A stretch of 64,000 bases of DNA from Escherichia phage moha. Each line of letters starts with the position of its first letter. Position 1 is the first letter of the stretch. The notes beneath the pieces are model-generated. The model was not told where the DNA came from. It worked only from the letters and a program-made list of their open reading frames with translations, and did no database searches. Positions 14,667 to 45,655 of the stretch are shown here, piece after piece. A program made the position numbers and the translations under genes. The stretch lies in the sequence record MN850590.1; one strand, written 5' to 3'.

Positions 14667-17378
14667 ATGAAAGAATTTTACTTAACGGTTGAACAGATTG
14701 GTGATTCAATTTTTGAACGTTACATCGATTCTAATGGCCGTGAACGTACTCGTGAAGTAGAATATAAACCATCACTGTTTGCTCATTGTCCAGAAAGTCA
14801 GGCTACGAAATATTTCGATATCTACGGTAAGCCGTGTACTCGTAAGTTGTTCGCCAATATGCGTGATGCCTCCCAATGGATTAAACGCATGGAAGATATC
14901 GGTCTTGAAGCATTAGGTATGGACGATTTCAAATTGGCGTATTTGTCTGACACTTATAACTATGAAATCAAATACGACCATACAAAAATTCGTGTGGCTA
15001 ACTTCGACATCGAAGTAACATCTCCAGATGGGTTCCCTGAGCCGTCACAAGCAAAACATCCGATTGATGCTATCACCCATTATGACTCAATTGACGACAG
15101 GTTCTACGTATTTGATCTATTGAATTCTCCATATGGTAATGTAGAAGAATGGTCTATTGAAATCGCTGCTAAGCTTCAAGAACAAGGCGGTGATGAAGTT
15201 CCATCCGAAATTATCGATAAAATCATTTATATGCCGTTCGATAACGAAAAAGAATTGTTGATGGAATATCTCAACTTCTGGCAACAGAAAACTCCTGTCA
15301 TTTTGACTGGATGGAACGTTGAGTCATTTGATATTCCATATGTGTATAACCGAATCAAGAATATTTTTGGCGAATCTACTGCGAAACGTTTATCACCACA
15401 TCGTAAAACTCGTGTTAAAGTTATCGAAAACATGTATGGTTCTCGTGAAATCATTACATTGTTCGGTATCTCTGTTCTTGATTACATTGACCTTTACAAA
15501 AAATTCTCTTTTACCAATCAACCGTCGTATTCTCTGGATTACATTTCAGAATTTGAATTGAACGTTGGTAAACTGAAATATGACGGCCCTATTTCTAAGC
15601 TTCGTGAAAGCAATCACCAACGATATATTTCTTATAACATTATCGACGTGTATCGTGTATTGCAAATTGATGCTAAGCGTCAGTTCATCAACTTGAGTTT
15701 GGACATGGGTTATTATGCTAAGATACAGATTCAATCTGTGTTTAGCCCAATTAAAACATGGGATGCTATTATTTTTAATAGCCTTAAAGAGCAGAACAAG
15801 GTGATTCCACAAGGTCGTTCTCACCCTGTTCAACCTTATCCTGGCGCTTTTGTTAAGGAACCTATTCCAAATCGATACAAATATGTAATGAGTTTCGACC
15901 TTACATCTCTGTATCCAAGTATTATTCGCCAAGTGAATATTAGCCCAGAAACAATAGCAGGAACGTTTAAAGTAGCTCCATTGCATGATTATATTAACGC
16001 AATCGCTGAACGTCCTTCTGATGTGTACAGTTGTTCTCCTAACGGCATGATGTATTATAAAGACCGTGACGGTGTTGTTCCAACTGAAATCACTAAGGTC
16101 TTTAATCAACGTAAAGAACATAAAGGTTATATGCTTGCGGCTCAACGTAATGGTGAAATAATTAAAGAGGCACTGCATAATCCTAATCTTTCTGTTGACG
16201 AACCATTAGATGTTGATTATCGTTTCGACTTCAGTGATGAGATTAAAGAAAAGATTAAAAAGTTGTCTGCTAAATCTCTTAATGAAATGTTGTTTAGAGC
16301 TCAACGTACTGAAGTTGCAGGTATGACTGCACAGATTAACCGTAAATTGCTTATCAACTCACTTTATGGTGCACTTGGCAACGTTTGGTTCCGTTATTAT
16401 GATTTGCGTAATGCTACTGCAATCACAACATTCGGTCAAATGGCTTTACAGTGGATTGAACGTAAAGTTAATGAATATCTGAATGAAGTTTGTGGTACAG
16501 AAGGTGAAGCTTTCGTTCTTTATGGTGATACAGACTCTATTTACGTATCTGCTGATAAAATTATCGATAAGGTTGGTGAATCTAAATTCCGTGATACCAA
16601 CCATTGGGTAGACTTCTTAGATAAGTTCGCACGTGAACGTATGGAACCGGCTATTGATAGAGGTTTCCGTGAAATGTGTGAATACATGAACAATAAACAA
16701 CACTTAATGTTCATGGACCGAGAAGCTATCGCTGGTCCTCCGCTCGGTTCTAAAGGTATTGGTGGATTCTGGACTGGTAAGAAACGTTATGCATTAAACG
16801 TTTGGGATATGGAAGGTACTCGTTACGCTGAGCCTAAACTCAAAATCATGGGTCTAGAGACTCAGAAATCTTCGACTCCTAAAGCAGTACAGAAAGCTCT
16901 TAAAGAATGTATTCGTCGTATGCTTCAAGAAGGTGAAGAATCATTACAAGAATATTTTAAAGAGTTTGAAAAAGAATTCCGTCAATTGAATTATATTAGC
17001 ATCGCGTCGGTATCTTCTGCGAATAACATTGCTAAATATGACGTTGGTGGATTCCCTGGTCCTAAATGTCCGTTCCATATTCGTGGAATTCTGACGTATA
17101 ACCGGGCTATCAAAGGTAATATTGATGCTCCACAAGTTGTAGAAGGTGAAAAAGTATATGTTCTGCCTTTACGTGAAGGAAACCCATTCGGTGATAAATG
17201 TATCGCATGGCCTTCTGGTACTGAAATCACAGATTTAATTAAAGACGACGTACTTCATTGGATGGACTACACTGTTCTCCTTGAGAAGACATTTATTAAA
17301 CCACTTGAAGGATTCACATCAGCAGCGAAACTCGATTACGAGAAGAAAGCATCTCTGTTCGATATGTTCGATTTTTGA
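14667..17378 (+). CDS. 43: DNA polymerase gp43 (family B), RB69-type
   Basis: 903 aa; sequence matches RB69 gp43 as recalled from structural literature; exo motif FDIE, pol motifs DxxSLYPS and YGDTDS. Confidence 0.97.
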   Translation: MKEFYLTVEQIGDSIFERYIDSNGRERTREVEYKPSLFAHCPESQATKYFDIYGKPCTRKLFANMRDASQWIKRMEDIGLEALGMDDFKLAYLSDTYNYEIKYDHTKIRVANFDIEVTSPDGFPEPSQAKHPIDAITHYDSIDDRFYVFDLLNSPYGNVEEWSIEIAAKLQEQGGDEVPSEIIDKIIYMPFDNEKELLMEYLNFWQQKTPVILTGWNVESFDIPYVYNRIKNIFGESTAKRLSPHRKTRVKVIENMYGSREIITLFGISVLDYIDLYKKFSFTNQPSYSLDYISEFELNVGKLKYDGPISKLRESNHQRYISYNIIDVYRVLQIDAKRQFINLSLDMGYYAKIQIQSVFSPIKTWDAIIFNSLKEQNKVIPQGRSHPVQPYPGAFVKEPIPNRYKYVMSFDLTSLYPSIIRQVNISPETIAGTFKVAPLHDYINAIAERPSDVYSCSPNGMMYYKDRDGVVPTEITKVFNQRKEHKGYMLAAQRNGEIIKEALHNPNLSVDEPLDVDYRFDFSDEIKEKIKKLSAKSLNEMLFRAQRTEVAGMTAQINRKLLINSLYGALGNVWFRYYDLRNATAITTFGQMALQWIERKVNEYLNEVCGTEGEAFVLYGDTDSIYVSADKIIDKVGESKFRDTNHWVDFLDKFARERMEPAIDRGFREMCEYMNNKQHLMFMDREAIAGPPLGSKGIGGFWTGKKRYALNVWDMEGTRYAEPKLKIMGLETQKSSTPKAVQKALKECIRRMLQEGEESLQEYFKEFEKEFRQLNYISIASVSSANNIAKYDVGGFPGPKCPFHIRGILTYNRAIKGNIDAPQVVEGEKVYVLPLREGNPFGDKCIAWPSGTEITDLIKDDVLHWMDYTVLLEKTFIKPLEGFTSAAKLDYEKKASLFDMFDF

Positions 17379-17418
17379 TATAATACCATGGACGGTAAAC
17401 TAATTAAATGAGAGAAAT

Positions 17419-18054
17419 ATGAAAACTACTCCTATTACTATCGCTATTGACGCAATCGTAAAACAAGCTTCTTCTTTGGCTACTATGGCCAAAGTAATTA
17501 GTCAAAACCCTGCTCGTTATAATGCTATTCTAGAAACTCTTCGACGCCCAGGACTTAGCAATTATGAAAGCCGAGTAATTATTACAGGTGTTGGTAAGAA
17601 TGCTAATATTGCAACTAAAGCTTCTGAGACATTTGCTTCACTCGGTATCCCAAGTATGTACTTGAACACCGGGCATTATTCTCACGGTGATGCAGGATTC
17701 ATTGCGCCTAATGATGTGTTGATTCATATTAGTCGTTCTGGTAAGACCGAAGAAATGATAGGTGTTGCTAAACATCTTCGTATGATTCGTCCGAACGTCA
17801 AACAGATTCTGTTGCATTGTAACCCAGACATTCCACAAGAAAATGAAGCCCTTTTTGATTACTCTTTCTGTACAGGCATCGCAGTAGAGGTTGACGAGAA
17901 CTCTTTAGCTCCGACTATGTCTACTACATTGTTGTTAGCGCTTATCGATACGTTTGCTATCAACCTTTCGTCTGAGCGTGGATTTACCTCTAATGACTTC
18001 CTTAAGTTCCACCCTGGTGGTGCACTAGGTGCCATGTTACGAGGCGAACAATGA
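17419..18054 (+). CDS. SIS-domain sugar-phosphate isomerase (KdsD/GutQ-like arabinose-5-phosphate isomerase, no CBS domains)
   Basis: ITGVGKNANIA, HISRSGKTEE, LAPTMSTT, HPGGALG blocks co-linear with KdsD SIS domain. Confidence 0.8.
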   Translation: MKTTPITIAIDAIVKQASSLATMAKVISQNPARYNAILETLRRPGLSNYESRVIITGVGKNANIATKASETFASLGIPSMYLNTGHYSHGDAGFIAPNDVLIHISRSGKTEEMIGVAKHLRMIRPNVKQILLHCNPDIPQENEALFDYSFCTGIAVEVDENSLAPTMSTTLLLALIDTFAINLSSERGFTSNDFLKFHPGGALGAMLRGEQ

Positions 18055-18194
18055 AAGCAATAACAATAGGACTTTTACTATTGATGCTTGTCATGACTAT
18101 CTACTGGAGCTTAACAGCTCCAGTAATGATTCCAACACTTGTAATTGGATGGATTATGATTGGACTACAAGCAAAGTATGAATGCTTTAACTAG
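18051..18194 (+). CDS. Hypothetical 47-aa hydrophobic peptide
   Basis: ATGA overlap with SIS gene stop; hydrophobic throughout; below ORF-track cutoff. Confidence 0.25.
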   Translation: MKAITIGLLLLMLVMTIYWSLTAPVMIPTLVIGWIMIGLQAKYECFN

Positions 18195-18207
18195 AATAGT
18201 GTACAAT
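18183..18207 (+). promoter_or_regulatory. MotA-dependent middle promoter upstream of nucleotidyltransferase-kinase gene
   Basis: MotA box TGCTTTA (18183-18189), 12-nt spacer, -10 TACAAT (18202-18207). Confidence 0.55.
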
Positions 18208-18235
18208 ACTCCTACTTACCAATGAGGACTTCAAC

Positions 18236-19921
18236 ATGAAAAAAGCTGTTATTCTTGGTGCTGGATTGGCAACTCGTTTATATCCAATAACGCATCATAT
18301 TCCTAAGGTGCTTGTTAACTATAAACAAGACACTATTCTGAGCAATTTGTATACAATTTATTCTGACCTTGGCGCAGATGAAATTATTGTAGTAGTTCAT
18401 TCAAAATTTGCTGAAACTGTTCGAGCTTATTGTGAGCAAGAAGGGTTCAATGTGACTATTCGTACAGTTGATGAAGCGTATGGATCTGCTTATGCTCTTG
18501 CTAAATTACACAAAGATTTAGACGGCCATAATGTAATTGTTAACTGGTGTGATATTATTCCTGATTTTGGTTCATGGTCTTGGAATGTTAACGCAATCTA
18601 TGTTAAAGGTGACGAATGTCGATATAATTTCGACGGTGAAAATATCACTAACGTAGGTTCAACAGGTGGTAATGTTGTAGGAATTTATCAGTTCAAAGAC
18701 TGGGAATTCTATATGGGTTCTACTGATGAAGAAATTCATGAATACTGCAAAGGACGTGATTTCGTAGAATTCCTTTACGCCAGCGCATTCAATAAATCAG
18801 AGCTTATGAATCTAATTGATTTAGGTGATATGCCTAAACTTGAAAAGGCTCATGAAGTTCGTGAACTTAATCGTAGTTTTAATGCAGTTGAAATTGGTGA
18901 AGAAACTGTAACTAAATTCGCATTGACCGAACAGGGTCGAGCTCTTCAGAAAGATGAGATTTCATGGTATCTTAAAGTGAAATCGGATTCAGTTCCTCAG
19001 TTAGTTTCTGTTAATGAAAATAACTTTGAAATGGAACGCATTAAAGGTAAGCCGGCATTTGAATATATTAAATCCAAATCAAGTCTTGCTCGTCCACAAA
19101 TTGTTGATGCAATTTTAGATGCACTGAAATTCAGCACAGACACTTATTTTGTAAGTCCTGAAACTGTTCGTCGTGATTTCACTAAAGAATTCTATACGAA
19201 AGTTATTGATCGTTGTGAAAGCATTCAACCATTGATTGATTCATTTGGTAAAATCACGCATGTGAACTACACTAAGATTGGACGTCTGAAGCCAATGCTG
19301 AAACAAGCTTTAGAACACCTTATTCGTTATCATAACCGTTCTCAGGGGCAGTACTCTGTTATTCACGGTGACCCGAACTTCAGTAATACTATGATTACTG
19401 ATAACGGCGAAGTCAAGTTTATCGACCCTCGTGGATATTTTGGCGAAACCAAGATTTACGGGCCAAAATTGTATGATGAAGCTAAAGTGCTTTATGCTGT
19501 TTCAGGTTATGATGAATTCAATGCTAATCCGACCTGGGGACAGTTTACTATTGATGAAACAACTTGTAATGTGACTATTAACATCAATCCATTAGTTTAC
19601 AAATATGGAAAGATGAGTTCGTTTAACGAGTATCATCATTTGGCAGTGGCAATTATCTGGATTGCATTAGGTGGTTATTTCAAGAATAATCCACTTAAAG
19701 CGGTAGCCGCATATTATAAAGGTATGGAACTTCTGACTAAGCAATTACGTAACATGGGCCGTGTACTTCAGGACGGCTCTATTAGTTATGACGTAGCAGA
19801 ACCTGTAACGGCTACTCTGATTACAAAAAATCCTGGTAAATGGGTACTAACTGATAAAGAAACTGGTGTTTCCTATCGTCCAATCGGTGGCGATATCACT
19901 CATCAATGGGAACGAATCTAA
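18236..19921 (+). CDS. Bifunctional sugar-1-phosphate nucleotidyltransferase / APH-fold sugar kinase
   Basis: N-terminal AVILGAGLATRL nucleotidyltransferase motif; C-terminal HGDPNFSN (HxDxxxxN) and IDPRG kinase motifs. Confidence 0.7.
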   Translation: MKKAVILGAGLATRLYPITHHIPKVLVNYKQDTILSNLYTIYSDLGADEIIVVVHSKFAETVRAYCEQEGFNVTIRTVDEAYGSAYALAKLHKDLDGHNVIVNWCDIIPDFGSWSWNVNAIYVKGDECRYNFDGENITNVGSTGGNVVGIYQFKDWEFYMGSTDEEIHEYCKGRDFVEFLYASAFNKSELMNLIDLGDMPKLEKAHEVRELNRSFNAVEIGEETVTKFALTEQGRALQKDEISWYLKVKSDSVPQLVSVNENNFEMERIKGKPAFEYIKSKSSLARPQIVDAILDALKFSTDTYFVSPETVRRDFTKEFYTKVIDRCESIQPLIDSFGKITHVNYTKIGRLKPMLKQALEHLIRYHNRSQGQYSVIHGDPNFSNTMITDNGEVKFIDPRGYFGETKIYGPKLYDEAKVLYAVSGYDEFNANPTWGQFTIDETTCNVTININPLVYKYGKMSSFNEYHHLAVAIIWIALGGYFKNNPLKAVAAYYKGMELLTKQLRNMGRVLQDGSISYDVAEPVTATLITKNPGKWVLTDKETGVSYRPIGGDITHQWERI

Positions 19922-20307
19922 TGCCCCGTGTAGAAAACATGCTTAATCTTTGTTTTGATGTCGATGATTGCATCACGGAATGGAATAACAATCGTGATTA
20001 CGTGAACTTCAAACCAGACGTCGAAATGGTGTCTGCCATTAATGCCCTGTATGATGCAGGGCATACCATAACGCTTTACACTGCTCGTGGTATGAAGTCA
20101 GTAGGTCCTGGTCGTATAGCAATTGACATTCTCCCAAGTCTGATTCAGAACTTGGAAAACATTGGTTTGAAGTACCATAATTTGCTAACACATAAACCAG
20201 TATATGATTGGATTATCGACGACAAAGCTATGCGTCCTGATGAATTCAAAGCTCTTATGAATAAAGGCGAATTCGAAACATTTAAATCATATAAACCAAA
20301 TCTATAA
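19921..20307 (+). CDS. HAD-superfamily phosphatase (small, KdsC/GmhB-like)
   Basis: Motif I FDVDDCIT, motif IV IIDDK; ATG 19921 overlaps upstream stop (alternative ATG 19906). Confidence 0.6.
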   Translation: MPRVENMLNLCFDVDDCITEWNNNRDYVNFKPDVEMVSAINALYDAGHTITLYTARGMKSVGPGRIAIDILPSLIQNLENIGLKYHNLLTHKPVYDWIIDDKAMRPDEFKALMNKGEFETFKSYKPNL

Positions 20308-20364
20308 TAATTTAAGTAAGACCTGCAAAAACCATCGCATCAATTAACGTGAGATGCAAAAAAA

Positions 20365-21525
20365 ATGAATACTTTTAAAATCGGAACGAATTTTGATTTA
20401 GCTCTTCTTGATAAAATCGTAGAGCTCAATAAAACCTATCCTAATAGCTTGATAAACGAAGTATATGGCTCTACAAGAGAAATGGCTTTTGTAGCAGCCA
20501 GACCTGATTTTAGGCTTCCTGACGTTGACAAAAAGATGTTAGAAGACTACGTTAAACGTTGTAACGAATTAGGTATTTGCTTTAACTATACACTCAACAC
20601 GATAAATCCTGGTTCAAAAAGAGAACTAGTTGAGTGGAAGAAGAAAGCTATTCAGGATTATGTTCAGTATCTTTGGTCAATAGGCGTATGGCGTATTACT
20701 ATCGCTAACCCTGTTGTTATGGAAATTGTTCGTGAAGTCAATAAAGATATTGAGATTGAAGTTTCAACAATTCTACATGTCGATGCTGTAACTCAAATAA
20801 AATACTTGCATGACCAATATAACATCAAAAAGGTCTGTTGCGGAATTCATAAGAACCGTTCAGTTTCTTTCCTGAAGCGTGCAGCAGAGTTTTGCAATAA
20901 GAACAATATAATATTTGAAGTTCTTGTAAATGAGTTCTGTTCTAATGCTGGTAAAGGGTATACAACACATTGTAGCTATCGTGACTCTTGCTATATTTTC
21001 CATAGTACTGATGTTACCGCTGATGATGCTAAATCCTTAAATGGATATCCAATGCAACACTGCATTAAAGCTCGTGATACAGACCCATTTAACTGGCTGA
21101 GAACTCGTTTTGTTCGTCCTCAAGATTTGAAACTTTATAATGATATTGGTATCACTCAATTCAAAGTTTCAGGACGTACAGGTAGCACAGACTACATTTT
21201 GAAAGTTCTTGAAGCATACGCTTCTGAAAAGTTTGAAGGTAATTTGTTAGAACTGTGGAAGCCTTTAGAGACTATTTTCACTCTTGAAAACGAAACTGAG
21301 TTTTCACATACAGTAAATATTGAAACCTCTTTGTTAGATGGCTTTTTAGAAAAAAGGTGGTTCAGACATCCAGATTTCGATTGTGCTAATGAAATCTGCG
21401 GGACGACGTGTACATATTGTGAAAGATATTATAAACGTCAATTATCTAAAAACGGGTTAGCAGAAAACTCTATATCTATTATTGATATAACTAACTCTGA
21501 TGACGCTTTGAGGTACCCGGAATGA
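20365..21525 (+). CDS. Cys-rich putative Fe-S enzyme (family unassigned; U32-like or radical-SAM-like)
   Basis: 386 aa; CX3CX2C (CGTTCTYC) near C-terminus plus internal Cys cluster EFCSNAGKGYTTHCSYRDSC. Confidence 0.55.
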   Translation: MNTFKIGTNFDLALLDKIVELNKTYPNSLINEVYGSTREMAFVAARPDFRLPDVDKKMLEDYVKRCNELGICFNYTLNTINPGSKRELVEWKKKAIQDYVQYLWSIGVWRITIANPVVMEIVREVNKDIEIEVSTILHVDAVTQIKYLHDQYNIKKVCCGIHKNRSVSFLKRAAEFCNKNNIIFEVLVNEFCSNAGKGYTTHCSYRDSCYIFHSTDVTADDAKSLNGYPMQHCIKARDTDPFNWLRTRFVRPQDLKLYNDIGITQFKVSGRTGSTDYILKVLEAYASEKFEGNLLELWKPLETIFTLENETEFSHTVNIETSLLDGFLEKRWFRHPDFDCANEICGTTCTYCERYYKRQLSKNGLAENSISIIDITNSDDALRYPE

Positions 21526-21761
21526 TTTCTAGAAAAACTTTTAACCACCAACTTAATGAAGAGATTTTGACTATGAAACTGAACACTAATGAACAAATTC
21601 TTAAAAAGGCCCTGATGGGCCTTTTTGAAACTAAAGCGGCTAAAGTGATTAAAGAACCTGTTCAATTAGAATACTACGCTGATGCATTTCTTCATAGTGT
21701 TCTTGGAAGTATCGATGCCGAAGCTTTACGTTATATCAATATTGCCAAGAAATTCAAATAA
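21522..21761 (+). CDS. Hypothetical protein
   Basis: 79-aa ORF overlapping upstream stop. Confidence 0.4.
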   Translation: MISRKTFNHQLNEEILTMKLNTNEQILKKALMGLFETKAAKVIKEPVQLEYYADAFLHSVLGSIDAEALRYINIAKKFK

Positions 21762-21802
21762 GCTTTACGAATTGAGTATATAATAATTGTATTGAGGTAA
21801 AC

Positions 21803-22519
21803 ATGGGAAAACATAACACAATGAAATATATCAAAGCCGCAGATTTTCAAACCGCATTTAAAGCAGTCAATCGTGAAATTTTAGAAAACCCGGAATTCGT
21901 AACTGATTCTCGTATTGGACGTTGTAATGAAATTGGGTCTATGACAGTAGTTGTTGACACTCCATCATCATTCAAAATGACCGACCCACGTATTAACCGC
22001 ATCTCTTATGAATATGCCGAAGACTTCTGGAAGTTTATGATTTCTGGTGGTACCAACGCAGAAGAAGCGTTTAAGGCATATCCTAATGTCGCTAAATTTA
22101 TTTCTAAACCAAAATCAGATGTTTTGCCGGCGAACTTCAACACTTTCTATGGTCCTCGCATTGCGGCTCAATTACCAGCTCTTCTAAAAGAACTTAAAGA
22201 GAAGCCTAACTCTCGAAGAGTTGTGTTCCAAATTCTAGAAAGTTCTGATCAGGCTTTGCTTGATTCGGACGAAACGCTTGAATATCCATGTACTGACTCA
22301 GTGACTTATTATATTCGTGATGGTAAGCTTTATACCCACTGTCATATGCGTTCTCAGAACTGTGCTGTTGTTATGCAGTTGGATTTTTATCTCCAAGGAA
22401 AATTACTTCATTATATCGCTAACGAATGTGGTGTAGAAGTTGGTGATTATACTCATACCATGGTAAGTGCCCATGTGTTTGAACGTGATTTTGATTATGT
22501 TAAAGGATTCCTTGACTAA
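21803..22519 (+). CDS. 42: ThyA-fold pyrimidine hydroxymethylase (dCMP hydroxymethylase-like)
   Basis: Candidate nucleophile Cys in EYPCTDSV and HMRSQN block typical of thymidylate synthase/dCMP hydroxymethylase family; position of T4 gene 42. Confidence 0.7.
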   Translation: MGKHNTMKYIKAADFQTAFKAVNREILENPEFVTDSRIGRCNEIGSMTVVVDTPSSFKMTDPRINRISYEYAEDFWKFMISGGTNAEEAFKAYPNVAKFISKPKSDVLPANFNTFYGPRIAAQLPALLKELKEKPNSRRVVFQILESSDQALLDSDETLEYPCTDSVTYYIRDGKLYTHCHMRSQNCAVVMQLDFYLQGKLLHYIANECGVEVGDYTHTMVSAHVFERDFDYVKGFLD

Positions 22520-23418
22520 TGGCTATTTTCCGCGTACCTATCTTGAGTATGCGGTCTTATGAAACTGGACAGTATGCTATCCTTAAGGATGGCAACTTCC
22601 AACTTCATTTGCACCGTGCTAATCCAGGTGATGTGATTACATATCCACGTAATGCATCTGATATTAAAGAATGTGAACGTCTTTTCCCAGAATTTAAGTT
22701 TGTTCCATTATGGTATAAAGATAACGCGTATAACACTCGTAAATATTTCTGGTCTGAAAATGAATTTGTGGTTGATTCATTAATTGCTTATTATGATTGT
22801 GATTTTCTAATCACAGATATCACTGGATATGATGGTGCTTTTGATGTAGAATTCAATTTCAATATCACTGCAGACCCTAATAAACCACGTTTTTATATTG
22901 ACGAATTCTTAAAAACTGATATGTTGTCGGTTAATCGTTCACTTCAAACTACTGTGTTGAATGAACGTCAAAAAGAAGTGCTGGTTAACGCAGGTGCAAA
23001 TGGTAATAAGATTATCGTAACGCAGAAAGTTATACGTCCTTCCATCATGCAGCGTCTTGTAGGTGATTTGGCTCCTATTCATCTAGATGGTATTTTTCAT
23101 CCATTTCGAATTAGTGACCCATGCTATCGTTTTGAACAAGTGGTTGAATGTGCAATTCAATTAGGTCAACCGCTTTATATAACCGATCCAAATAATAGCT
23201 TCGACAGAAATAAGTATCCTGAAGAAGCGTTGATTCGAATTTTTAAACCAACTAAAACTGAGTACTATCAAATTCTTAAAGGACGTCCGAAGATTCAATA
23301 TTTCGAAAATCCTGAAGAAGTATTCCATCCAGGTCTTGGTGAGTTCATCTACTTTAATGCTTTAATTTCTTCGCCGTATAATATACCTAAATACGAAGAT
23401 GTCGTAATCGAGGAATAA
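22519..23418 (+). CDS. Hypothetical protein in the beta-gt slot (candidate DNA-modification enzyme)
   Basis: 299-aa ORF, no recognised motifs; lies where T4 has beta-glucosyltransferase. Confidence 0.55.
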   Translation: MAIFRVPILSMRSYETGQYAILKDGNFQLHLHRANPGDVITYPRNASDIKECERLFPEFKFVPLWYKDNAYNTRKYFWSENEFVVDSLIAYYDCDFLITDITGYDGAFDVEFNFNITADPNKPRFYIDEFLKTDMLSVNRSLQTTVLNERQKEVLVNAGANGNKIIVTQKVIRPSIMQRLVGDLAPIHLDGIFHPFRISDPCYRFEQVVECAIQLGQPLYITDPNNSFDRNKYPEEALIRIFKPTKTEYYQILKGRPKIQYFENPEEVFHPGLGEFIYFNALISSPYNIPKYEDVVIEE

Positions 23419-23419
23419 A

Positions 23420-23968
23420 ATGGCTAAAATTATTTTAGTAGACGGCCCAGATAATGCTGGTAAAACAACTTTCATTAATGACATAATGGAAATTAGTGAA
23501 AGATATGTAAAGATTGATTTCCCTAAACGAACAGTTGATGGACGTTTCGATGTTAAGTCTCGAAATGAAGTTGGCTGTTTCGAAACGATGTTGAATTATT
23601 TAGACCCTACTAAGATTTATCTGTTAGACCGTGGATATATTAGTAACTGGGTTTATGGACGTATTCGACAAGATGCGGACTCGGTTCTTGATGTTTATGA
23701 ACAGGATTATGTTCGTCTTTGCCAAAACCATGATGTGTTCACAATTATTTTAACACGTAACGAAATGACTGAAAGTTTTGAAGACGACCTTATTACTTTG
23801 TCTTCATTCGGTTTTAATACAGTCATTTCACATTTTGAAGAGTTTGCAATTCATAACAAAATCCAAACGTATCAATTACTTAATCATGATGGTGCTAACA
23901 AAGTTATAGGATTTAATGCAAGCGAACGTAATGATTTGATTACAGAAATCATCAAATGGGCTCGTTAA
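23420..23968 (+). CDS. P-loop nucleoside-monophosphate kinase-like protein (Tmk-like)
   Basis: Walker A DGPDNAGKTT; LDRGY...YG resembles thymidylate kinase DRY/lid region. Confidence 0.6.
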   Translation: MAKIILVDGPDNAGKTTFINDIMEISERYVKIDFPKRTVDGRFDVKSRNEVGCFETMLNYLDPTKIYLLDRGYISNWVYGRIRQDADSVLDVYEQDYVRLCQNHDVFTIILTRNEMTESFEDDLITLSSFGFNTVISHFEEFAIHNKIQTYQLLNHDGANKVIGFNASERNDLITEIIKWAR

Positions 23969-24066
23969 GAGCCATTTAAAGTTTTAAATGCTGTATAACC
24001 CTTAGTATATAATCATTTTATCTTTTAAACATGAGTAAAATATAATGATGCCTATGGAAAAATACA

Positions 24067-25239
24067 ATGTCTGATTTAAAATCTCGTCTGATTAAAGCTT
24101 CTACTTCTAAAATGACTGCAGACTTGACTAAGTCTAAGCTGTTTAATAATCGCGATGAAGTCCCTACTCGTATTCCGATGTTGAATATTGCATTAGGTGG
24201 TGCACTGAATGCAGGGTTGCAATCAGGCTTAACTATTTTTGCTGCACCTTCTAAACATTTTAAAACATTGTTTGGACTAACTATGGTTGCAGCGTATATG
24301 AAGAAATATAAAGATGCAATCTGTTTGTTTTATGACTCAGAATTCGGTGCTTCAGAATCTTATTTTCGTTCAATGGGTGTTGATTTAGACCGTGTAGTTC
24401 ATACTCCGATTCAATCTGTCGAACAACTTAAAGTTGATATGACTAATCAGCTTGACGCTATTGAACGCGGTGATAAAGTTATTATCTTTATTGACTCGAT
24501 TGGTAATACTGCATCTAAGAAAGAAACCGAAGATGCATTGAACGAGAAAGTTGTAGGTGATATGTCTCGTGCTAAGGCACTTAAATCTCTGTTCCGCATT
24601 GTGACCCCGTATCTGACTATTAAAGATATTCCGTGTGTTGCAATTAACCATACAGCAATGGAAATCGGCGGATTGTATCCTAAAGAGATTATGGGTGGTG
24701 GTACAGGTATTCTTTATTCTGCCAACACAGTGTTTTTTATCTCTAAACGTCAGGTTAAAGAAGGTACAGAATTGACCGGTTATGACTTCACGTTGAAAGC
24801 AGAAAAATCTCGCACAGTTAAAGAGAAATCTACTTTCCCGATCACGGTTAATTTTGATGGCGGTATTGACCCATTCAGTGGCTTGTTAGAAATGGCAACT
24901 GAAATTGGTTTTGTGGTTAAGCCTAAAGCCGGTTGGTATGCTCGCGAATTCCTTGACGAAGAAACAGGTGAAATGATTCGTGAAGAAAAATCATGGCGTG
25001 CTAAAGCTACTGATTGTGTAGAATTCTGGGGACCTTTGTTTAAACACAAACCTTTCCGAGATGCAATTGAAACTAAATATAAACTAGGTGCTATCTCTTC
25101 TATTAAAGAAGTTGATGACGCTGTTAATGACCTTATTAATTGCAAAGCAACAACTAAAGTTCCGGTTAAAACTTCTGATGCTCCGTCTGCAGCAGATATA
25201 GAAAACGACCTTGACGAAATGGAAGATTTCGATGAATAA
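24067..25239 (+). CDS. uvsX: Recombinase UvsX (RecA-like)
   Basis: T4 UvsX-like N-terminus MSDLKSRLIKASTSK as recalled; Walker A GPSKHFKT. Confidence 0.95.
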   Translation: MSDLKSRLIKASTSKMTADLTKSKLFNNRDEVPTRIPMLNIALGGALNAGLQSGLTIFAAPSKHFKTLFGLTMVAAYMKKYKDAICLFYDSEFGASESYFRSMGVDLDRVVHTPIQSVEQLKVDMTNQLDAIERGDKVIIFIDSIGNTASKKETEDALNEKVVGDMSRAKALKSLFRIVTPYLTIKDIPCVAINHTAMEIGGLYPKEIMGGGTGILYSANTVFFISKRQVKEGTELTGYDFTLKAEKSRTVKEKSTFPITVNFDGGIDPFSGLLEMATEIGFVVKPKAGWYAREFLDEETGEMIREEKSWRAKATDCVEFWGPLFKHKPFRDAIETKYKLGAISSIKEVDDAVNDLINCKATTKVPVKTSDAPSAADIENDLDEMEDFDE

Positions 25240-32041: not shown

Positions 32042-32563
32042 ATGGCACACTTTAACGAATGTTCACAACTTATTTCTGGTGTTGATAAAGCAGAAGAAGC
32101 TTATTTTAATGCTCTGATTCACGAAGATAAAGACCCACTGCAGGTAATGCTTGATATGCAGAAATCTTTACAGGTTCGTCTGGCAAATGACAAGCCTGAA
32201 CATAACAAACATCCTGATGAATTGGTCACTGCTGGCGATGTTGTTGATTGGCTGCGTAATCAGAAAGATTATATTGATGATGAATTCCGTGAACTGCTGA
32301 CTTCACTTGGTGGTATGAGCAATGGTGAAAAAGCCGCTAGCTCTGTATGGAAGCCATGGAAAGCACAACATGCTGAATATCGAAATCGTCGTATCGATGA
32401 ACTGTCTCCTGAAGACCAGCTTGAAATTAAATTTGAAATGATTGATATTCTGCACTTCGTTCTGAACATGTTCCAAGGTCTGGGTCTTTCTGCTGAAGAA
32501 ATCTTTAAACTGTATTATCTGAAGAATGCTGAAAACTTTGCTCGTCAAGACCGAGGTTATTAA
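32042..32563 (+). CDS. 56: dCTP pyrophosphatase gp56 (MazG-like)
   Basis: All-alpha MazG-like sequence with acidic block EDQLEIKFEMIDILHF; position after gene 61. Confidence 0.7.
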   Translation: MAHFNECSQLISGVDKAEEAYFNALIHEDKDPLQVMLDMQKSLQVRLANDKPEHNKHPDELVTAGDVVDWLRNQKDYIDDEFRELLTSLGGMSNGEKAASSVWKPWKAQHAEYRNRRIDELSPEDQLEIKFEMIDILHFVLNMFQGLGLSAEEIFKLYYLKNAENFARQDRGY

Positions 32564-44554: not shown

Positions 44555-45655
44555 ATGAAAGTTATGTTTATCCCATCTCGTGCAGTCCCATTTAACCCAG
44601 AACGTGTACAAGGTGGTCTTGAAGCAGTACATTTAAATGTGTTGAAATATCTTGTGTCCATCGGTGCCGATATTGATTATATTGGTTTTGATAATGACAC
44701 ATTTGGTGATTGGAAGGTTAATCATCATCCTGTTGGTCATCTGACTAAATTCAGTCTAGGTATGAGTTATACTATGGCTCGTAAGATTGTTGAACTAGCC
44801 GGCATCCATGAATACGATTTTGTTGTTACTATGGAACCGACTAAACTAACCGTTCAGGCAATTAAAGACGCAGGTCTCTCTAAAGTTCATAAGAATTTTA
44901 TGGCAACACCATTTGAACCGGTATCTCGTGGCATTGTTCAAATTTGGGACCAGACTATTCAAATTCATAAGAATGGTGGTAAGAGTTATGCTCCTACTAA
45001 AGCCTTCCGTGAATTTGAACGTAAATATTGTTATATGACTTCAGGTCTGACTGACAAAATTGATTATGATTATTGGCGAGCAAATCCTTTGTTTGAAGCC
45101 GAAGATTATCCGGTTATTTGTTTGACTGAAAAGCCAGAAGTTCTTCCGGCGACGGATCTGATTATTAGTGCACAACGTTATGACACTAAAATGCGTCGTA
45201 CTGATGTTGCTCTTGAAGCGATTAAAGCACTAGGCGAAAATGGTGCAGGATACTGTCCAAGCAAATGGGCGCCACCGGCTAAATATCCTGTTATTATTGA
45301 TGCTCCACACAGTGAAATTATGGAACGTCTTAAAACAGCTAAAGCACTTATTAATACGTGTCCTGACACAGGTACGGTAGAGAATAGTTCTATTGAAGCC
45401 ATCTCTAAAGGTGTCCCTGTAATCCAGTTAGTTTTTAAGGATTATCCTCATGCGACATTTGAATACGACCCAGATACTGTGCGTGTAGAAATTGATTCCT
45501 CTACTCCTAAGAAAGAAGTAGTTGCGCTTTACACAAAAGCTGTATTAGAATTCACTGACACATACGAAGCTCGAGTTAAACGTGCTGAAGCAGTATGGAA
45601 GAAGTATAACCGAGATGCAGTTGTTGCGATGTGGGATAAAATCTTCACAGCGTAA
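44555..45655 (+). CDS. GT-B fold glycosyltransferase (candidate DNA sugar transferase)
   Basis: N-terminal MKVMFIPS...GG.E.V and C-terminal ENSSIEAISKGVPVIQ resembling GT-B donor-binding E-x7-E region. Confidence 0.6.
   Translation: MKVMFIPSRAVPFNPERVQGGLEAVHLNVLKYLVSIGADIDYIGFDNDTFGDWKVNHHPVGHLTKFSLGMSYTMARKIVELAGIHEYDFVVTMEPTKLTVQAIKDAGLSKVHKNFMATPFEPVSRGIVQIWDQTIQIHKNGGKSYAPTKAFREFERKYCYMTSGLTDKIDYDYWRANPLFEAEDYPVICLTEKPEVLPATDLIISAQRYDTKMRRTDVALEAIKALGENGAGYCPSKWAPPAKYPVIIDAPHSEIMERLKTAKALINTCPDTGTVENSSIEAISKGVPVIQLVFKDYPHATFEYDPDTVRVEIDSSTPKKEVVALYTKAVLEFTDTYEARVKRAEAVWKKYNRDAVVAMWDKIFTA

What the first reader, a model, noticed from the sequence alone, without database searches (positions are those of the whole stretch)
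17419..20307. Stand-alone KdsD-like SIS isomerase (no CBS domains) plus mini-HAD phosphatase flanking the kinase gene
The SIS protein aligns block by block with the catalytic domain of arabinose-5-phosphate isomerases (ITGVGKNANIA, HISRSGKTEE, LAPTMSTT, HPGGALG) but is only 211 aa and lacks the CBS pair. The 129-aa HAD protein has motif I FDVDDCIT and motif IV IIDDK. In bacteria an isomerase-phosphatase pair feeds Kdo or heptose synthesis; here there is no KdsA/KdsB, which suggests the phage diverts a host pentose-phosphate intermediate into DNA modification.
Basis: partly seen in the sequence, partly recalled or inferred. Interest (0 to 1): 0.7.

Follow-up and report, generated by a model that had tools for sequence, protein, structure and literature searches.

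The report
Phage arabinose pathway for DNA modification

Summary
Window 17419-20307 encodes three enzymes. One is a 211-aa SIS isomerase with no CBS pair. One is a 561-aa sugar-1-phosphate nucleotidyltransferase fused to a kinase. One is a 128-aa (maximal ORF 133-aa) mini-HAD phosphatase.

The window is a Mosigvirus, with proteins 96-100% identical to phage RB69. These genes are RB69 gp55, gp52:53 and gp51. They were proposed as UDP-arabinose genes in 2018. A 2026 paper assigns them to this pathway: ribulose-5-P to arabinose-5-P, to arabinofuranose-1,5-bisphosphate, to arabinofuranose-1-P, to UDP-arabinofuranose. Glycosyltransferases then put the sugar on 5-hydroxycytosine in phage DNA. A crystal structure of a ~98% identical HAD protein is in the PDB.

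The middle gene is bifunctional, and the published phosphatase substrate is the 1,5-bisphosphate. Novelty: already known. Interest: low.

One lead lies just outside the finding. The neighbouring U32-family gene sits beside a chorismate mutase in 48 related phages. It is not among the ten commonest host names for Acinetobacter (strict aerobe) phages. It may be an oxygen-independent, prephenate-dependent cytosine hydroxylase.

The parts
17419..18054 (+). Stand-alone SIS-domain D-arabinose-5-phosphate isomerase (211 aa), orthologue of RB69 gp55. Predicted reaction: ribulose-5-P to arabinose-5-P.
   Evidence: Pfam SIS only. NCBIfam KdsD model matched over positions 47-202 of 328. PDB 3etn 1.8e-25. 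KdsD K59/H88/E111/E152/H193 align with K60/H89/E112/E157/H198. 98.6% identical to RB69 gp55.
18051..18194 (+). 47-aa hydrophobic ORF (RB69 ORF054c homologue). Its start overlaps the SIS stop codon (ATGA). Role unknown.
   Evidence: Sequence read. PHROG 3610 at 6.8e-27. 100% identical to RB69. The same 144-nt ORF follows the isomerase gene in Klebsiella phage KLB31 and Erwinia phage Virsaitis27.
18236..19921 (+). Bifunctional enzyme (561 aa), orthologue of RB69 gp52:53 and counterpart of HY126 AfhE. N-terminal domain: sugar-1-phosphate nucleotidyltransferase. C-terminal domain: choline-kinase/APH-like sugar kinase.
19921..20307 (+). Mini-HAD phosphatase (128 aa; 133 aa if started at 19906), orthologue of RB69 gp51 and counterpart of HY126 AfhF. 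Reported reaction: arabinofuranose-1,5-bisphosphate to arabinofuranose-1-P.
   Evidence: PDB 9iqw 9e-86 (126 of 128 aligned residues identical) and 1xpj 1.5e-10. NCBIfam TIGR01689 at 1.6e-13. HAD motifs at D13/D15, T54, K92, D100/D101. Function as summarised in PMC13326640.
20365..21525 (+). U32-family protein (386 aa), orthologue of RB69 gp50. Part of the cluster; function unresolved. Candidate O2-independent hydroxylase (see novel case).
21522..21761 (+). 79-aa ORF of unknown function. It occupies the slot held by a chorismate mutase gene in related phages.
   Evidence: PHROG 8601. No Pfam hit. hhalign against the phage chorismate mutases gives probability 0.09.
21803..22519 (+). Thymidylate-synthase homologue, the 5-hydroxy-dCMP synthase (RB69 gp48 orthologue).
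   Evidence: 99.2% identical to RB69 gp48, whose activity is marked as confirmed experimentally in PMC13326640. PDB 9iqc 7.9e-161.
22519..23418 (+). Putative DNA arabinosyltransferase 1 (299 aa), orthologue of RB69 gp46:47. Intact here; split in the RB69 RefSeq record.
   Evidence: Two tblastn pieces, 98.3% and 100% identical to RB69. Assignment from PMC13326640.
23420..23968 (+). Thymidylate-kinase-like nucleotide kinase (182 aa), orthologue of RB69 gp45.
   Evidence: 99.5% identical to RB69. PHROG 761 'thymidylate kinase' at 1.6e-45.
32042..32563 (+). dCTPase (gp56-type). It removes unmodified dCTP from the pool.
   Evidence: ORF listed. Annotated 'dCTPase / dCDPase' at the colinear position in phage Bas47.
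44555..45655 (+). Putative DNA arabinosyltransferase 2 (366 aa), RB69 ORF003c/gp3 homologue.
   Evidence: 99.2% identical to RB69 ORF003c. ORF listed. Assignment from PMC6024577 and PMC13326640.

Best explanation
The three genes are the sugar-activation half of the arabinosyl-5-hydroxycytosine DNA-hypermodification system of RB69-type (Mosigvirus) phages.

Proposed pathway:
1. The CBS-less SIS isomerase converts host ribulose-5-phosphate to D-arabinose-5-phosphate.
2. The C-terminal kinase domain of the 561-aa protein phosphorylates C1, giving arabinofuranose-1,5-bisphosphate.
3. The mini-HAD phosphatase removes the 5-phosphate, giving arabinofuranose-1-phosphate.
4. The N-terminal nucleotidyltransferase domain condenses this with UTP, giving UDP-arabinofuranose.
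5. The arabinosyltransferases encoded at 22519-23418 and 44555-45655 transfer the sugar to 5-hydroxycytosine. That base is made as 5-hydroxy-dCMP by the thymidylate-synthase homologue at 21803-22519.
6. The result is phage DNA that resists many host nucleases.

Shown here: the identity, domain content and catalytic motifs of the three proteins; near-identity to RB69; conserved synteny; and fusion of the four activities in other organisms.

Taken from the literature: arabinofuranose on 5-hydroxycytosine in RB69 DNA; UDP-Araf as a donor; and the kinase-then-phosphatase order. The last comes from He et al. 2026 on phage HY126, known to me only through PMC13326640.

Inferred: that the isomerase uses ribulose-5-P. 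PMC13326640 says 'we propose' this.
For: Identity of the window:
- DNA is 97-98% identical to about 150 Mosigvirus genomes.
- Proteins are 96-100% identical to RB69 gp45-gp55.
- Bas47, 97.6% identical over 24 kb, is already annotated 'putative phosphosugar isomerase involved in UDP-arabinose biosynthesis' and 'putative phosphatase'.

Literature:
- PMC6024577 proposes ORF055c and ORF53_52c for UDP-arabinose synthesis.
- PMC13326640 gives the pathway for gp55, gp52:53 and gp51, the Araf-5-hydroxy-dC structure, and UDP-Araf use by DLP3 glycosyltransferases on RB69 DNA.

Isomerase: KdsD catalytic residues are conserved. The best solved relative is the 220-residue chain 3etn.

Bifunctional enzyme: fold matches to both nucleotidyltransferases and small-molecule kinases. 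Signature residues are invariant.

Phosphatase: all four HAD motifs are present, and a near-identical crystal structure exists, 9iqw.

Functional linkage:
- The gene order SIS, nucleotidyltransferase/kinase, HAD, ThyA homologue, glycosyltransferase, kinase is conserved in Acinetobacter phage DLP3 at only 46-69% identity.
- Single polypeptides of about 900-955 aa carry HAD, SIS, NTP_transferase and kinase together (P0084, P0088, P0089, P0092, and P0091 from a Ceratiomyxa transcriptome).

No KdsA, KdsB or KdsC in the window.
Against: - I could not read the primary biochemical papers (He et al. 2026; Mahler et al. 2025). The order of the kinase and phosphatase steps is therefore second-hand.
- Table 1 of PMC13326640 still lists the older order: phosphatase on Araf5P, then kinase on free arabinose.
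- In what I could read, the isomerase step is proposed and not assayed.
- The isomerase is not universal. Phage records with the bifunctional enzyme number 371 and with the HAD 356, but only 275 have the isomerase. The complete genome of Dhakavirus vB_EcoM_005 has none. The isomerase is therefore an accessory part.
- The SIS and HAD proteins score below NCBIfam's curated cut-offs for KpsF/GutQ and EcbF-BcbF.
Confidence: 0.9

Rival explanations
1. Same pathway and same end product, but with the opposite order. The HAD phosphatase first dephosphorylates arabinose-5-P to free D-arabinose, and the kinase then makes arabinose-1-P.
For: Table 1 of PMC13326640 words the functions this way: 'dephosphorylates Araf5p to Ara' and 'Phosphorylates Ara to Araf1p'. 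The nearest structural relatives of the kinase domain (choline, fructosamine, glucosamine and maltose kinases) act on non-phosphorylated hydroxyls.
Against: The text of the same paper, citing the in vitro work on HY126 AfhE/AfhF, states kinase first and then removal of the 5-phosphate. My inference: free arabinose would equilibrate to the pyranose form, whereas a 5-phosphate locks the furanose ring that is found on the DNA. The ADP-heptose pathway uses the same order of isomerase, kinase, phosphatase and transferase (general knowledge).
Confidence: 0.07
2. The genes are auxiliary metabolic genes that feed the host's surface polysaccharide synthesis (Kdo, heptose or capsule), as the database names 'phosphoheptose isomerase', 'capsule biosynthesis protein', 'kpsF' and 'GlmU' suggest.
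For: GenBank annotations of homologues carry these names. The HAD protein matches the NCBIfam 'capsule biosynthesis phosphatase' model at 1.6e-13. The nucleotidyltransferase domain's best profile match in the PDB is the heptose-pathway enzyme HddC, at 1.4e-12.
Against: The window has no KdsA, KdsB or KdsC. The genes are always embedded between the DNA polymerase gene and the 5-hydroxy-dCMP synthase, glycosyltransferase and kinase genes. RB69 DNA carries arabinofuranose (PMC13326640). The HAD protein shows no similarity to KdsC and is below the curated cut-off of TIGR01689.
Confidence: 0.02
3. The SIS protein isomerises a different sugar phosphate, such as sedoheptulose-7-P or fructose-6-P, and host KdsD/GutQ supplies the arabinose-5-P.
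For: In the papers I could read, the isomerase activity is only proposed. Many phages with the rest of the pathway lack the gene, so host arabinose-5-P evidently suffices for them.
Against: All five KdsD active-site residues are conserved. The strongest family and structure matches are all arabinose-5-P isomerases, with other SIS families at least 20 orders of magnitude weaker. The SIS domain is fused to the rest of the pathway in other organisms.
Confidence: 0.03

Closest known systems
RB69 gp55 / gp52:53 / gp51 (ORF055c, ORF53_52c, ORF051c); Thomas et al. 2018, Lee et al. 2026
   Same: Orthologues at 97.7-99.7% identity, with the same order and the same flanking genes. This is the same system in a sister phage.
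   Different: The 561-aa gene and the 299-aa glycosyltransferase gene are intact here. In the RB69 RefSeq record both are split. For the 561-aa gene a single-base sequencing error was documented in PMC6024577; for the glycosyltransferase PMC13326640 reports a sequencing error.
AfhE / AfhF of coliphage HY126 (He et al. 2026, Nat Chem Biol; known to me through PMC13326640)
   Same: A bifunctional arabinose-5-P kinase and UDP-arabinose pyrophosphorylase, plus a Mg-dependent HAD phosphatase. PDB 9iqw ('capsule biosynthesis protein') is about 98% identical to the window's HAD protein, and 9iqc/9ir2/9iqu are near-identical to its ThyA homologue.
   Different: That the 9iq* PDB entries come from that study is my inference, because the PDB copy carries no citation. 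I found no solved structure of the bifunctional enzyme.
ADP-heptose pathway: GmhA (SIS isomerase), HldE (kinase + nucleotidyltransferase), GmhB (HAD phosphatase)
   Same: The same four-step logic: ketose-phosphate isomerase, anomeric kinase giving a bisphosphate, HAD phosphatase removing the distal phosphate, then nucleotidyltransferase. The kinase and transferase are likewise fused. The nucleotidyltransferase domain's best profile hit in the PDB is the heptose enzyme HddC.
   Different: The substrate is a pentose, not a heptose. The kinase is of the choline-kinase/APH fold, whereas HldE's kinase is of the ribokinase type (general knowledge). The isomerase is of KdsD type and not GmhA type. 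The product decorates DNA, not LPS.
Kdo pathway: KdsD, KdsA, KdsC, KdsB
   Same: The isomerase is a KdsD homologue (36% identity, catalytic residues conserved) and draws on the same host metabolite.
   Different: There is no CBS pair and no KdsA or KdsB. The HAD protein is unrelated to KdsC at sequence level.
Single-domain bacterial arabinose-5-P isomerases (for example the Bacteroides fragilis protein of PDB 3etn)
   Same: A stand-alone SIS-length chain (220 residues in 3etn). It is the best solved relative (1.8e-25, aligned over residues 48-206).
   Different: The phage enzyme is encoded in a DNA-modification cluster, whereas 3etn is named for capsule formation.

Membership tests
KpsF/GutQ/KdsD arabinose-5-phosphate isomerases | SIS domain (Pfam PF01380) | tested here: met
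   PF01380 at 1.9e-10, 41.1 bits against a cut-off of 25, covering residues 51-181.
KpsF/GutQ/KdsD arabinose-5-phosphate isomerases | Active-site residues equivalent to E. coli KdsD K59, H88, E111, E152 and H193 (residue list from my knowledge of the KdsD mutagenesis and structure literature) | tested here: met
   They align with K60, H89, E112, E157 and H198.
KpsF/GutQ/KdsD arabinose-5-phosphate isomerases | C-terminal tandem CBS domains | tested here: not met
   The protein ends at residue 211, just after HPGGALG. KdsD residues 203-328 have no counterpart. CBS-less members exist: chain 3etn has 220 residues. This defines the canonical architecture and not the activity.
KpsF/GutQ/KdsD arabinose-5-phosphate isomerases | Score above the NCBIfam curated cut-off (TIGR00393 / NF008141) | tested here: not met
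   111.5 bits against a cut-off of 203.7, and 106.2 against 505. Only the SIS half of each model is matched.
KpsF/GutQ/KdsD arabinose-5-phosphate isomerases | Interconversion of ribulose-5-P and arabinose-5-P | not testable with these tools
   Needs an enzyme assay or complementation of a kdsD gutQ mutant.
HAD-superfamily phosphatases (capless mini-HAD, 1xpj / EcbF-BcbF type) | Four HAD motifs: I DxDx(T/V), II S/T, III K, IV DD | tested here: met
   D13-V-D15-D-C (Cys in place of T/V), T54, K92, D100-D101. They align with the same motifs of 1xpj.
HAD-superfamily phosphatases (capless mini-HAD, 1xpj / EcbF-BcbF type) | Score above the NCBIfam TIGR01689 cut-off | tested here: not met
   50.7 bits against a cut-off of 162. 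It is related to that subfamily but not a member by the curators' threshold.
HAD-superfamily phosphatases (capless mini-HAD, 1xpj / EcbF-BcbF type) | Solved HAD-like structure of a close relative | tested here: met
   PDB 9iqw at 9e-86, 126 of 128 aligned residues identical.
KdsC (Kdo-8-P phosphatase) | Sequence similarity to E. coli KdsC | tested here: not met
   Best pairwise BLASTP E = 0.13 over 20 residues.
AfhE-type bifunctional arabinose-5-P kinase / UDP-arabinose pyrophosphorylase | N-terminal sugar-1-P nucleotidyltransferase fold with the G-x-G-x-R-L...K signature | tested here: met
AfhE-type bifunctional arabinose-5-P kinase / UDP-arabinose pyrophosphorylase | C-terminal protein-kinase-like small-molecule kinase with an H-x-D-x4-N catalytic loop and a metal-binding Asp | tested here: met
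AfhE-type bifunctional arabinose-5-P kinase / UDP-arabinose pyrophosphorylase | The two catalytic activities and UTP specificity | not testable with these tools
   Reported for HY126 AfhE only, via PMC13326640.
Phage arabinosyl-5-hydroxycytosine modification cluster (RB69 / DLP3 type) | Co-located 5-hydroxy-dCMP synthase (ThyA homologue), nucleotide kinase and DNA arabinosyltransferase(s) | tested here: met
   All are present at 21803-23968 and 44555-45655, at 98-100% identity to RB69. The same order is found in DLP3.
Phage arabinosyl-5-hydroxycytosine modification cluster (RB69 / DLP3 type) | Arabinosylated 5-hydroxycytosine in virion DNA | not testable with these tools
   Shown for RB69, and reported for Bas46/47 and phage NP (PMC13326640, PMC13390438). 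Not measurable for this window's own phage.

The most novel reading that the evidence does not exclude
The most novel reading my evidence leaves open concerns the next gene in the same cluster, the U32-family protein at 20365-21525 (RB69 gp50, labelled only 'sugar or heterocycle reductase' in the 2026 paper).

The hypothesis is that it is an oxygen-independent, prephenate-dependent pyrimidine C5-hydroxylase. It would let these phages make 5-hydroxycytosine in anoxic hosts, where the O2- and flavin-dependent ThyA homologue cannot work.

Basis:
- The only functionally studied U32 proteins (RlhA, TrhP, UbiU/V) are linked to O2-independent, prephenate-dependent hydroxylations. Two of these act at C5 of a pyrimidine (PMC10990095, PMC6599085).
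- A type II chorismate mutase gene, whose product is prephenate, sits directly after the U32 gene in 48 related phage records.
- A DAHP synthase gene sits directly after it in a distant phage-like contig.
- Homologues in jumbo-phage-like contigs sit next to dCMP-deaminase-family and thymidylate-kinase-family genes.
- Two divergent contigs carry SIS, nucleotidyltransferase/kinase, glycosyltransferase and U32 genes with no ThyA homologue in view.
- Of the 221 phage records with the gene, Acinetobacter (an obligate aerobe) is not among the ten most frequent names. Fifty-seven Acinetobacter phage records have the sugar genes.
- The protein is 79-100% conserved where its neighbours fall to 44-71%.

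I could not read He et al. 2026 or Mahler et al. 2025, so the idea may already be published.
Probability: 0.3. Interest if true: 0.7.

Novelty: already known. Interest (0 to 1): 0.15.

Why it matters
The pathway explains how a large group of T4-like phages builds a sugar nucleotide that enterobacteria are not known to make. Phage records carrying the bifunctional enzyme number 371 in the collection searched. The phages use the sugar nucleotide to hide every cytosine from restriction enzymes and CRISPR nucleases. This bears on phage therapy, on phage engineering and on the enzymatic synthesis of glycosylated DNA.

For this scan, the value is that a tool-free reading reached the published answer from sequence alone, so it serves as a calibration point and not a discovery.

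The open piece is the neighbouring U32 gene. If it is an anaerobic cytosine hydroxylase, it would extend prephenate-dependent hydroxylation from RNA and quinones to DNA precursors. It would also explain how gut phages keep their DNA modified without oxygen.

Tried and rejected
- Kdo or heptose feeding of the host envelope: rejected. No KdsA, KdsB or KdsC in the window, and the HAD protein is unrelated to KdsC.
- Promoter and terminator scan of 17300-24200: no more sites than in shuffled sequence, so uninformative.
- Reading the primary biochemical papers (He 2026; Mahler 2025): not held. A search for 'AfhE/AfhF' returned only the 2026 NAR paper.
- Homology between the fused proteins' HAD domain and the phage mini-HAD: none. 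The phosphatase step is filled by different HAD subfamilies.
- A link between isomerase presence and ORF003c-type second glycosyltransferases: holds for RB69, DLP3, the Thanatos-2 locus and vB_EcoM_005. It does not hold generally. Serratia, Enterobacter and Yersinia phages have the isomerase but no ORF003c-type hit.
- The window's 79-aa ORF as a diverged chorismate mutase: no support.
- PDB sequence and profile searches with the U32 protein: nothing meaningful.
- The AFDB fold library was unavailable.


Full report
1. WHAT THE WINDOW IS

The ORF just upstream of the finding (14667-17378) is a T4-type DNA polymerase. The finding region is 97-98% identical in DNA to about 150 Mosigvirus genomes: RB69-like phages of Escherichia and Shigella. 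Against the RB69 RefSeq record, the nine proteins encoded between 17419 and 23968 are 96-100% identical and colinear with RB69p055 to RB69p045.

2. THE OBSERVATION

The SIS protein (17419-18054, 211 aa) contains ITGVGKNANIA, HISRSGKTEE, LAPTMSTT and HPGGALG at residues 55, 103, 163 and 198. Pfam finds a SIS domain and nothing else. NCBIfam's KdsD model is matched only over positions 47-202 of 328. A direct alignment with E. coli KdsD gives 36% identity over KdsD residues 23-202, and the phage protein stops four residues later, so the CBS pair is absent. The residues I know as the KdsD active site (K59, H88, E111, E152, H193) align with K60, H89, E112, E157 and H198. The best solved relative is 3etn, itself a stand-alone SIS-length chain of 220 residues (1.8e-25). 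A CBS-less isomerase of this kind is therefore not unusual in itself.

The HAD protein ends at 20307. The maximal ORF starts at 19906 (133 aa). The ATG at 19921 overlaps the stop codon of the upstream gene (TAATG). It is the RefSeq RB69 start, and the same arrangement occurs in phages DLP3 and vB_EcoM_005, giving 128 aa. It carries the four HAD motifs: D13/D15, T54, K92 and D100/D101. It had no Pfam hit at the threshold used (E up to 0.01) but matches PDB 1xpj (1.5e-10) and NCBIfam TIGR01689 (1.6e-13, below the curated cut-off).

E. coli KdsA, KdsB and KdsC have no counterpart anywhere in the 64-kb window.

3. WHAT IT IS AND HOW IT WORKS

These are RB69 gp55, gp52:53 and gp51.

Thomas et al. 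2018 (PMC6024577) found arabinose on RB69 DNA and proposed ORF055c and the corrected ORF53_52c as UDP-arabinose genes.

Lee et al. 2026 (PMC13326640) showed that RB69 cytosine is replaced by mono- and di-arabinofuranosyl-5-hydroxycytosine. They also showed that the neighbouring thymidylate-synthase homologue makes 5-hydroxy-dCMP with O2 and a flavin. They laid out the route as ribulose-5-P, arabinose-5-P, arabinofuranose-1,5-bisphosphate, arabinofuranose-1-P and UDP-arabinofuranose, assigned to gp55, the gp52:53 C-terminal domain, gp51 and the gp52:53 N-terminal domain. For the kinase and phosphatase steps they cite in vitro work on the HY126 proteins AfhE and AfhF by He et al. 2026. UDP-Araf was used as donor by DLP3 glycosyltransferases acting on RB69 DNA.

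The PDB holds a 134-residue chain, 9iqw, that is 126/128 identical to the window's HAD protein. It also holds 9iqc, 9ir2 and 9iqu, which are near-identical to its ThyA homologue. I infer these come from the He et al. study.

Phage Bas47, 97.6% identical to the window over 24 kb, has carried the annotations 'putative phosphosugar isomerase involved in UDP-arabinose biosynthesis' and 'putative phosphatase' in its GenBank record.

4. INDEPENDENT SUPPORT GATHERED HERE

(a) Synteny. Acinetobacter phage DLP3 belongs to a different subfamily, with proteins only 46-69% identical. It keeps the order SIS, nucleotidyltransferase/kinase, HAD, ThyA homologue, glycosyltransferase, kinase.

(b) Gene fusion. 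Polypeptides of about 900-955 aa from metagenomic contigs and from a Ceratiomyxa transcriptome carry HAD, SIS, NTP_transferase and kinase in one chain. Their SIS domain is 31% identical to the phage protein and also ends at HPGGxLG. Their HAD domain is of another subfamily.

(c) The logic is that of the ADP-heptose pathway (GmhA, HldE, GmhB). The nucleotidyltransferase domain's best profile match in the PDB is the heptose enzyme HddC.

(d) The rest of the system is in the window. It includes the 5-hydroxy-dCMP synthase (21803-22519), arabinosyltransferase 1 (22519-23418, intact here) and a nucleotide kinase (23420-23968). It also includes the dCTPase (32042-32563) and arabinosyltransferase 2, the ORF003c homologue (44555-45655).

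5. LIMITS

I could not read He et al. or Mahler et al.. The kinase-before-phosphatase order is therefore second-hand, and Table 1 of Lee et al. still shows the opposite order.

The isomerase step is 'proposed' in the text I read. The isomerase is also dispensable in evolution. Phage records with the bifunctional enzyme number 371 and with the HAD 356, but only 275 have the isomerase. The complete genome of Dhakavirus vB_EcoM_005 has the other five genes and no isomerase. Such phages presumably rely on host KdsD/GutQ for arabinose-5-P.

6. VERDICT ON THE FINDING

Novelty is 'already known', and interest is low.

7. A LEAD NEXT DOOR

Conservation. It is found in 221 phage records, and all hits there are at least 80% identical. 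It is 79% identical in the Shewanella phage Thanatos-2 locus, where the neighbouring proteins are 44-71% identical.

Host range. The hosts named are enterobacteria and Shewanella. Acinetobacter is not among the ten commonest names, and each remaining name has at most three records. Fifty-seven Acinetobacter phage records carry the sugar genes. DLP3 has no such gene in its cluster.

Links to prephenate. In Klebsiella phage KLB31, Erwinia phage Virsaitis27 and Shewanella phage Thanatos-2, the small ORF directly downstream is a type II chorismate mutase, above Pfam's cut-off in all three. That gene lies between the U32 gene and the ThyA homologue in 48 phage records. In the window the same slot holds an unrelated 79-aa ORF. 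In a distant phage-like contig the gene after the U32 homologue is a DAHP synthase (NF006421, 2.6e-70).

Nucleotide contexts. In two jumbo-phage-like contigs the gene before the U32 homologue is of the dCMP-deaminase family, and one of them also has a thymidylate-kinase-family gene nearby. Two divergent contigs carry SIS, nucleotidyltransferase/kinase, glycosyltransferase and U32 genes with no ThyA homologue in the 13-15 kb seen.

Cysteines. Ten are invariant across 30 homologues. Three align with three of the four conserved cysteines shared by E. coli UbiU, UbiV, RlhA and TrhP. Four form a C-terminal CX4CX3CX2C group that the E. coli proteins lack.

Background. UbiU/V need prephenate as the oxygen donor under anoxia. 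RlhA (5-hydroxycytidine in 23S rRNA) and TrhP (5-hydroxyuridine in tRNA) are linked to O2-independent hydroxylation. Most U32 subfamilies are uncharacterised (PMC10990095; PMC6599085).

Hypothesis. The phage U32 protein may be an anaerobic, prephenate-dependent route to 5-hydroxycytosine that complements the O2-dependent ThyA homologue. Against it, Dhakavirus phages of E. coli lack the gene, and no activity has been shown for any member of this subfamily. No paper in the searchable library links these terms, but the two unreadable papers may.

Noticed in passing
window 20365-21525 (+); also L013 11728-12864, L014 4483-5658, L015 4492-5661, L019-L023: A U32-family protein in the cluster is very highly conserved: at least 80% identical in all 221 phage records that carry it. 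It is followed by a type II chorismate mutase gene in 48 related phage records and by a DAHP synthase gene in one distant contig. It sits next to dCMP-deaminase-family genes in jumbo-phage-like contigs. Acinetobacter is not among the ten commonest host names. It has ten invariant cysteines, including a C-terminal CX4CX3CX2C group. It is a candidate O2-independent, prephenate-dependent cytosine hydroxylase. The 2026 paper calls it only 'sugar or heterocycle reductase'.
   Followed up: partly
window 21522-21761 (+): This 79-aa ORF overlaps the U32 stop codon and occupies the slot where Kanagawavirus, Winklervirus and Thanatos phages encode a chorismate mutase. It has no Pfam hit and no profile similarity to those mutases (hhalign probability 0.09). 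It is either a replacement or diverged beyond recognition.
   Followed up: partly
window 18051-18194 (+): A 47-aa strongly hydrophobic ORF lies between the isomerase and the bifunctional gene, and its start overlaps the isomerase stop codon (ATGA). An ORF of the same length follows the isomerase gene in Klebsiella phage KLB31 and Erwinia phage Virsaitis27. Its role is unknown.
   Followed up: no
L002, L006-L009 (Escherichia phage vB_EcoM_005, whole genome); L013 (Shewanella phage Thanatos-2 locus): The isomerase is optional. The Dhakavirus genome has the bifunctional enzyme (42% identical), HAD (64%), ThyA homologue (79%), glycosyltransferase 1 (61%) and kinase (37%), but no SIS isomerase, no U32 and no ORF003c-type transferase. 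The 18-kb Thanatos-2 locus also lacks the isomerase. Record counts in the phage collection: bifunctional enzyme 371, HAD 356, isomerase 275, U32 221, ORF003c-type transferase 211.
   Followed up: yes
proteins P0084, P0088, P0089, P0092 (metagenomic and NCBI contigs up to 134 kb) and P0091 (Ceratiomyxa fruticulosa transcriptome): Single polypeptides of about 900-955 aa carry HAD_2, SIS, NTP_transferase and kinase domains in that order, i.e. the whole NDP-arabinose route in one chain. One comes from a eukaryotic transcriptome. Their source organisms and products are unknown.
   Followed up: partly
window 18236-19921 and 22519-23418, against RB69 RefSeq L001: Both genes are single intact ORFs here (561 and 299 aa), whereas the RB69 reference record splits each in two. 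This agrees with the sequencing errors reported in the RB69 papers.
   Followed up: yes
GenBank records seen: Public annotations of these genes are often misleading. The HAD phosphatase is called 'phosphoheptose isomerase', 'capsule biosynthesis protein' or 'polynucleotide kinase'. The bifunctional enzyme is called 'GlmU'. Arabinosyltransferase 1 is called 'RNA polymerase binding protein'. The 5-hydroxy-dCMP synthase is called 'dCMP hydroxymethylase'.
   Followed up: no
L023 3996-8891: A divergent phage-like contig (DNA polymerase III alpha, several UDG-family genes) has the contiguous genes glycosyltransferase, SIS, nucleotidyltransferase/kinase, U32, DAHP synthase and epimerase. No ThyA homologue is present in the 15 kb seen. 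This may be a variant of the pathway with a different hydroxylase or a different sugar.
   Followed up: partly
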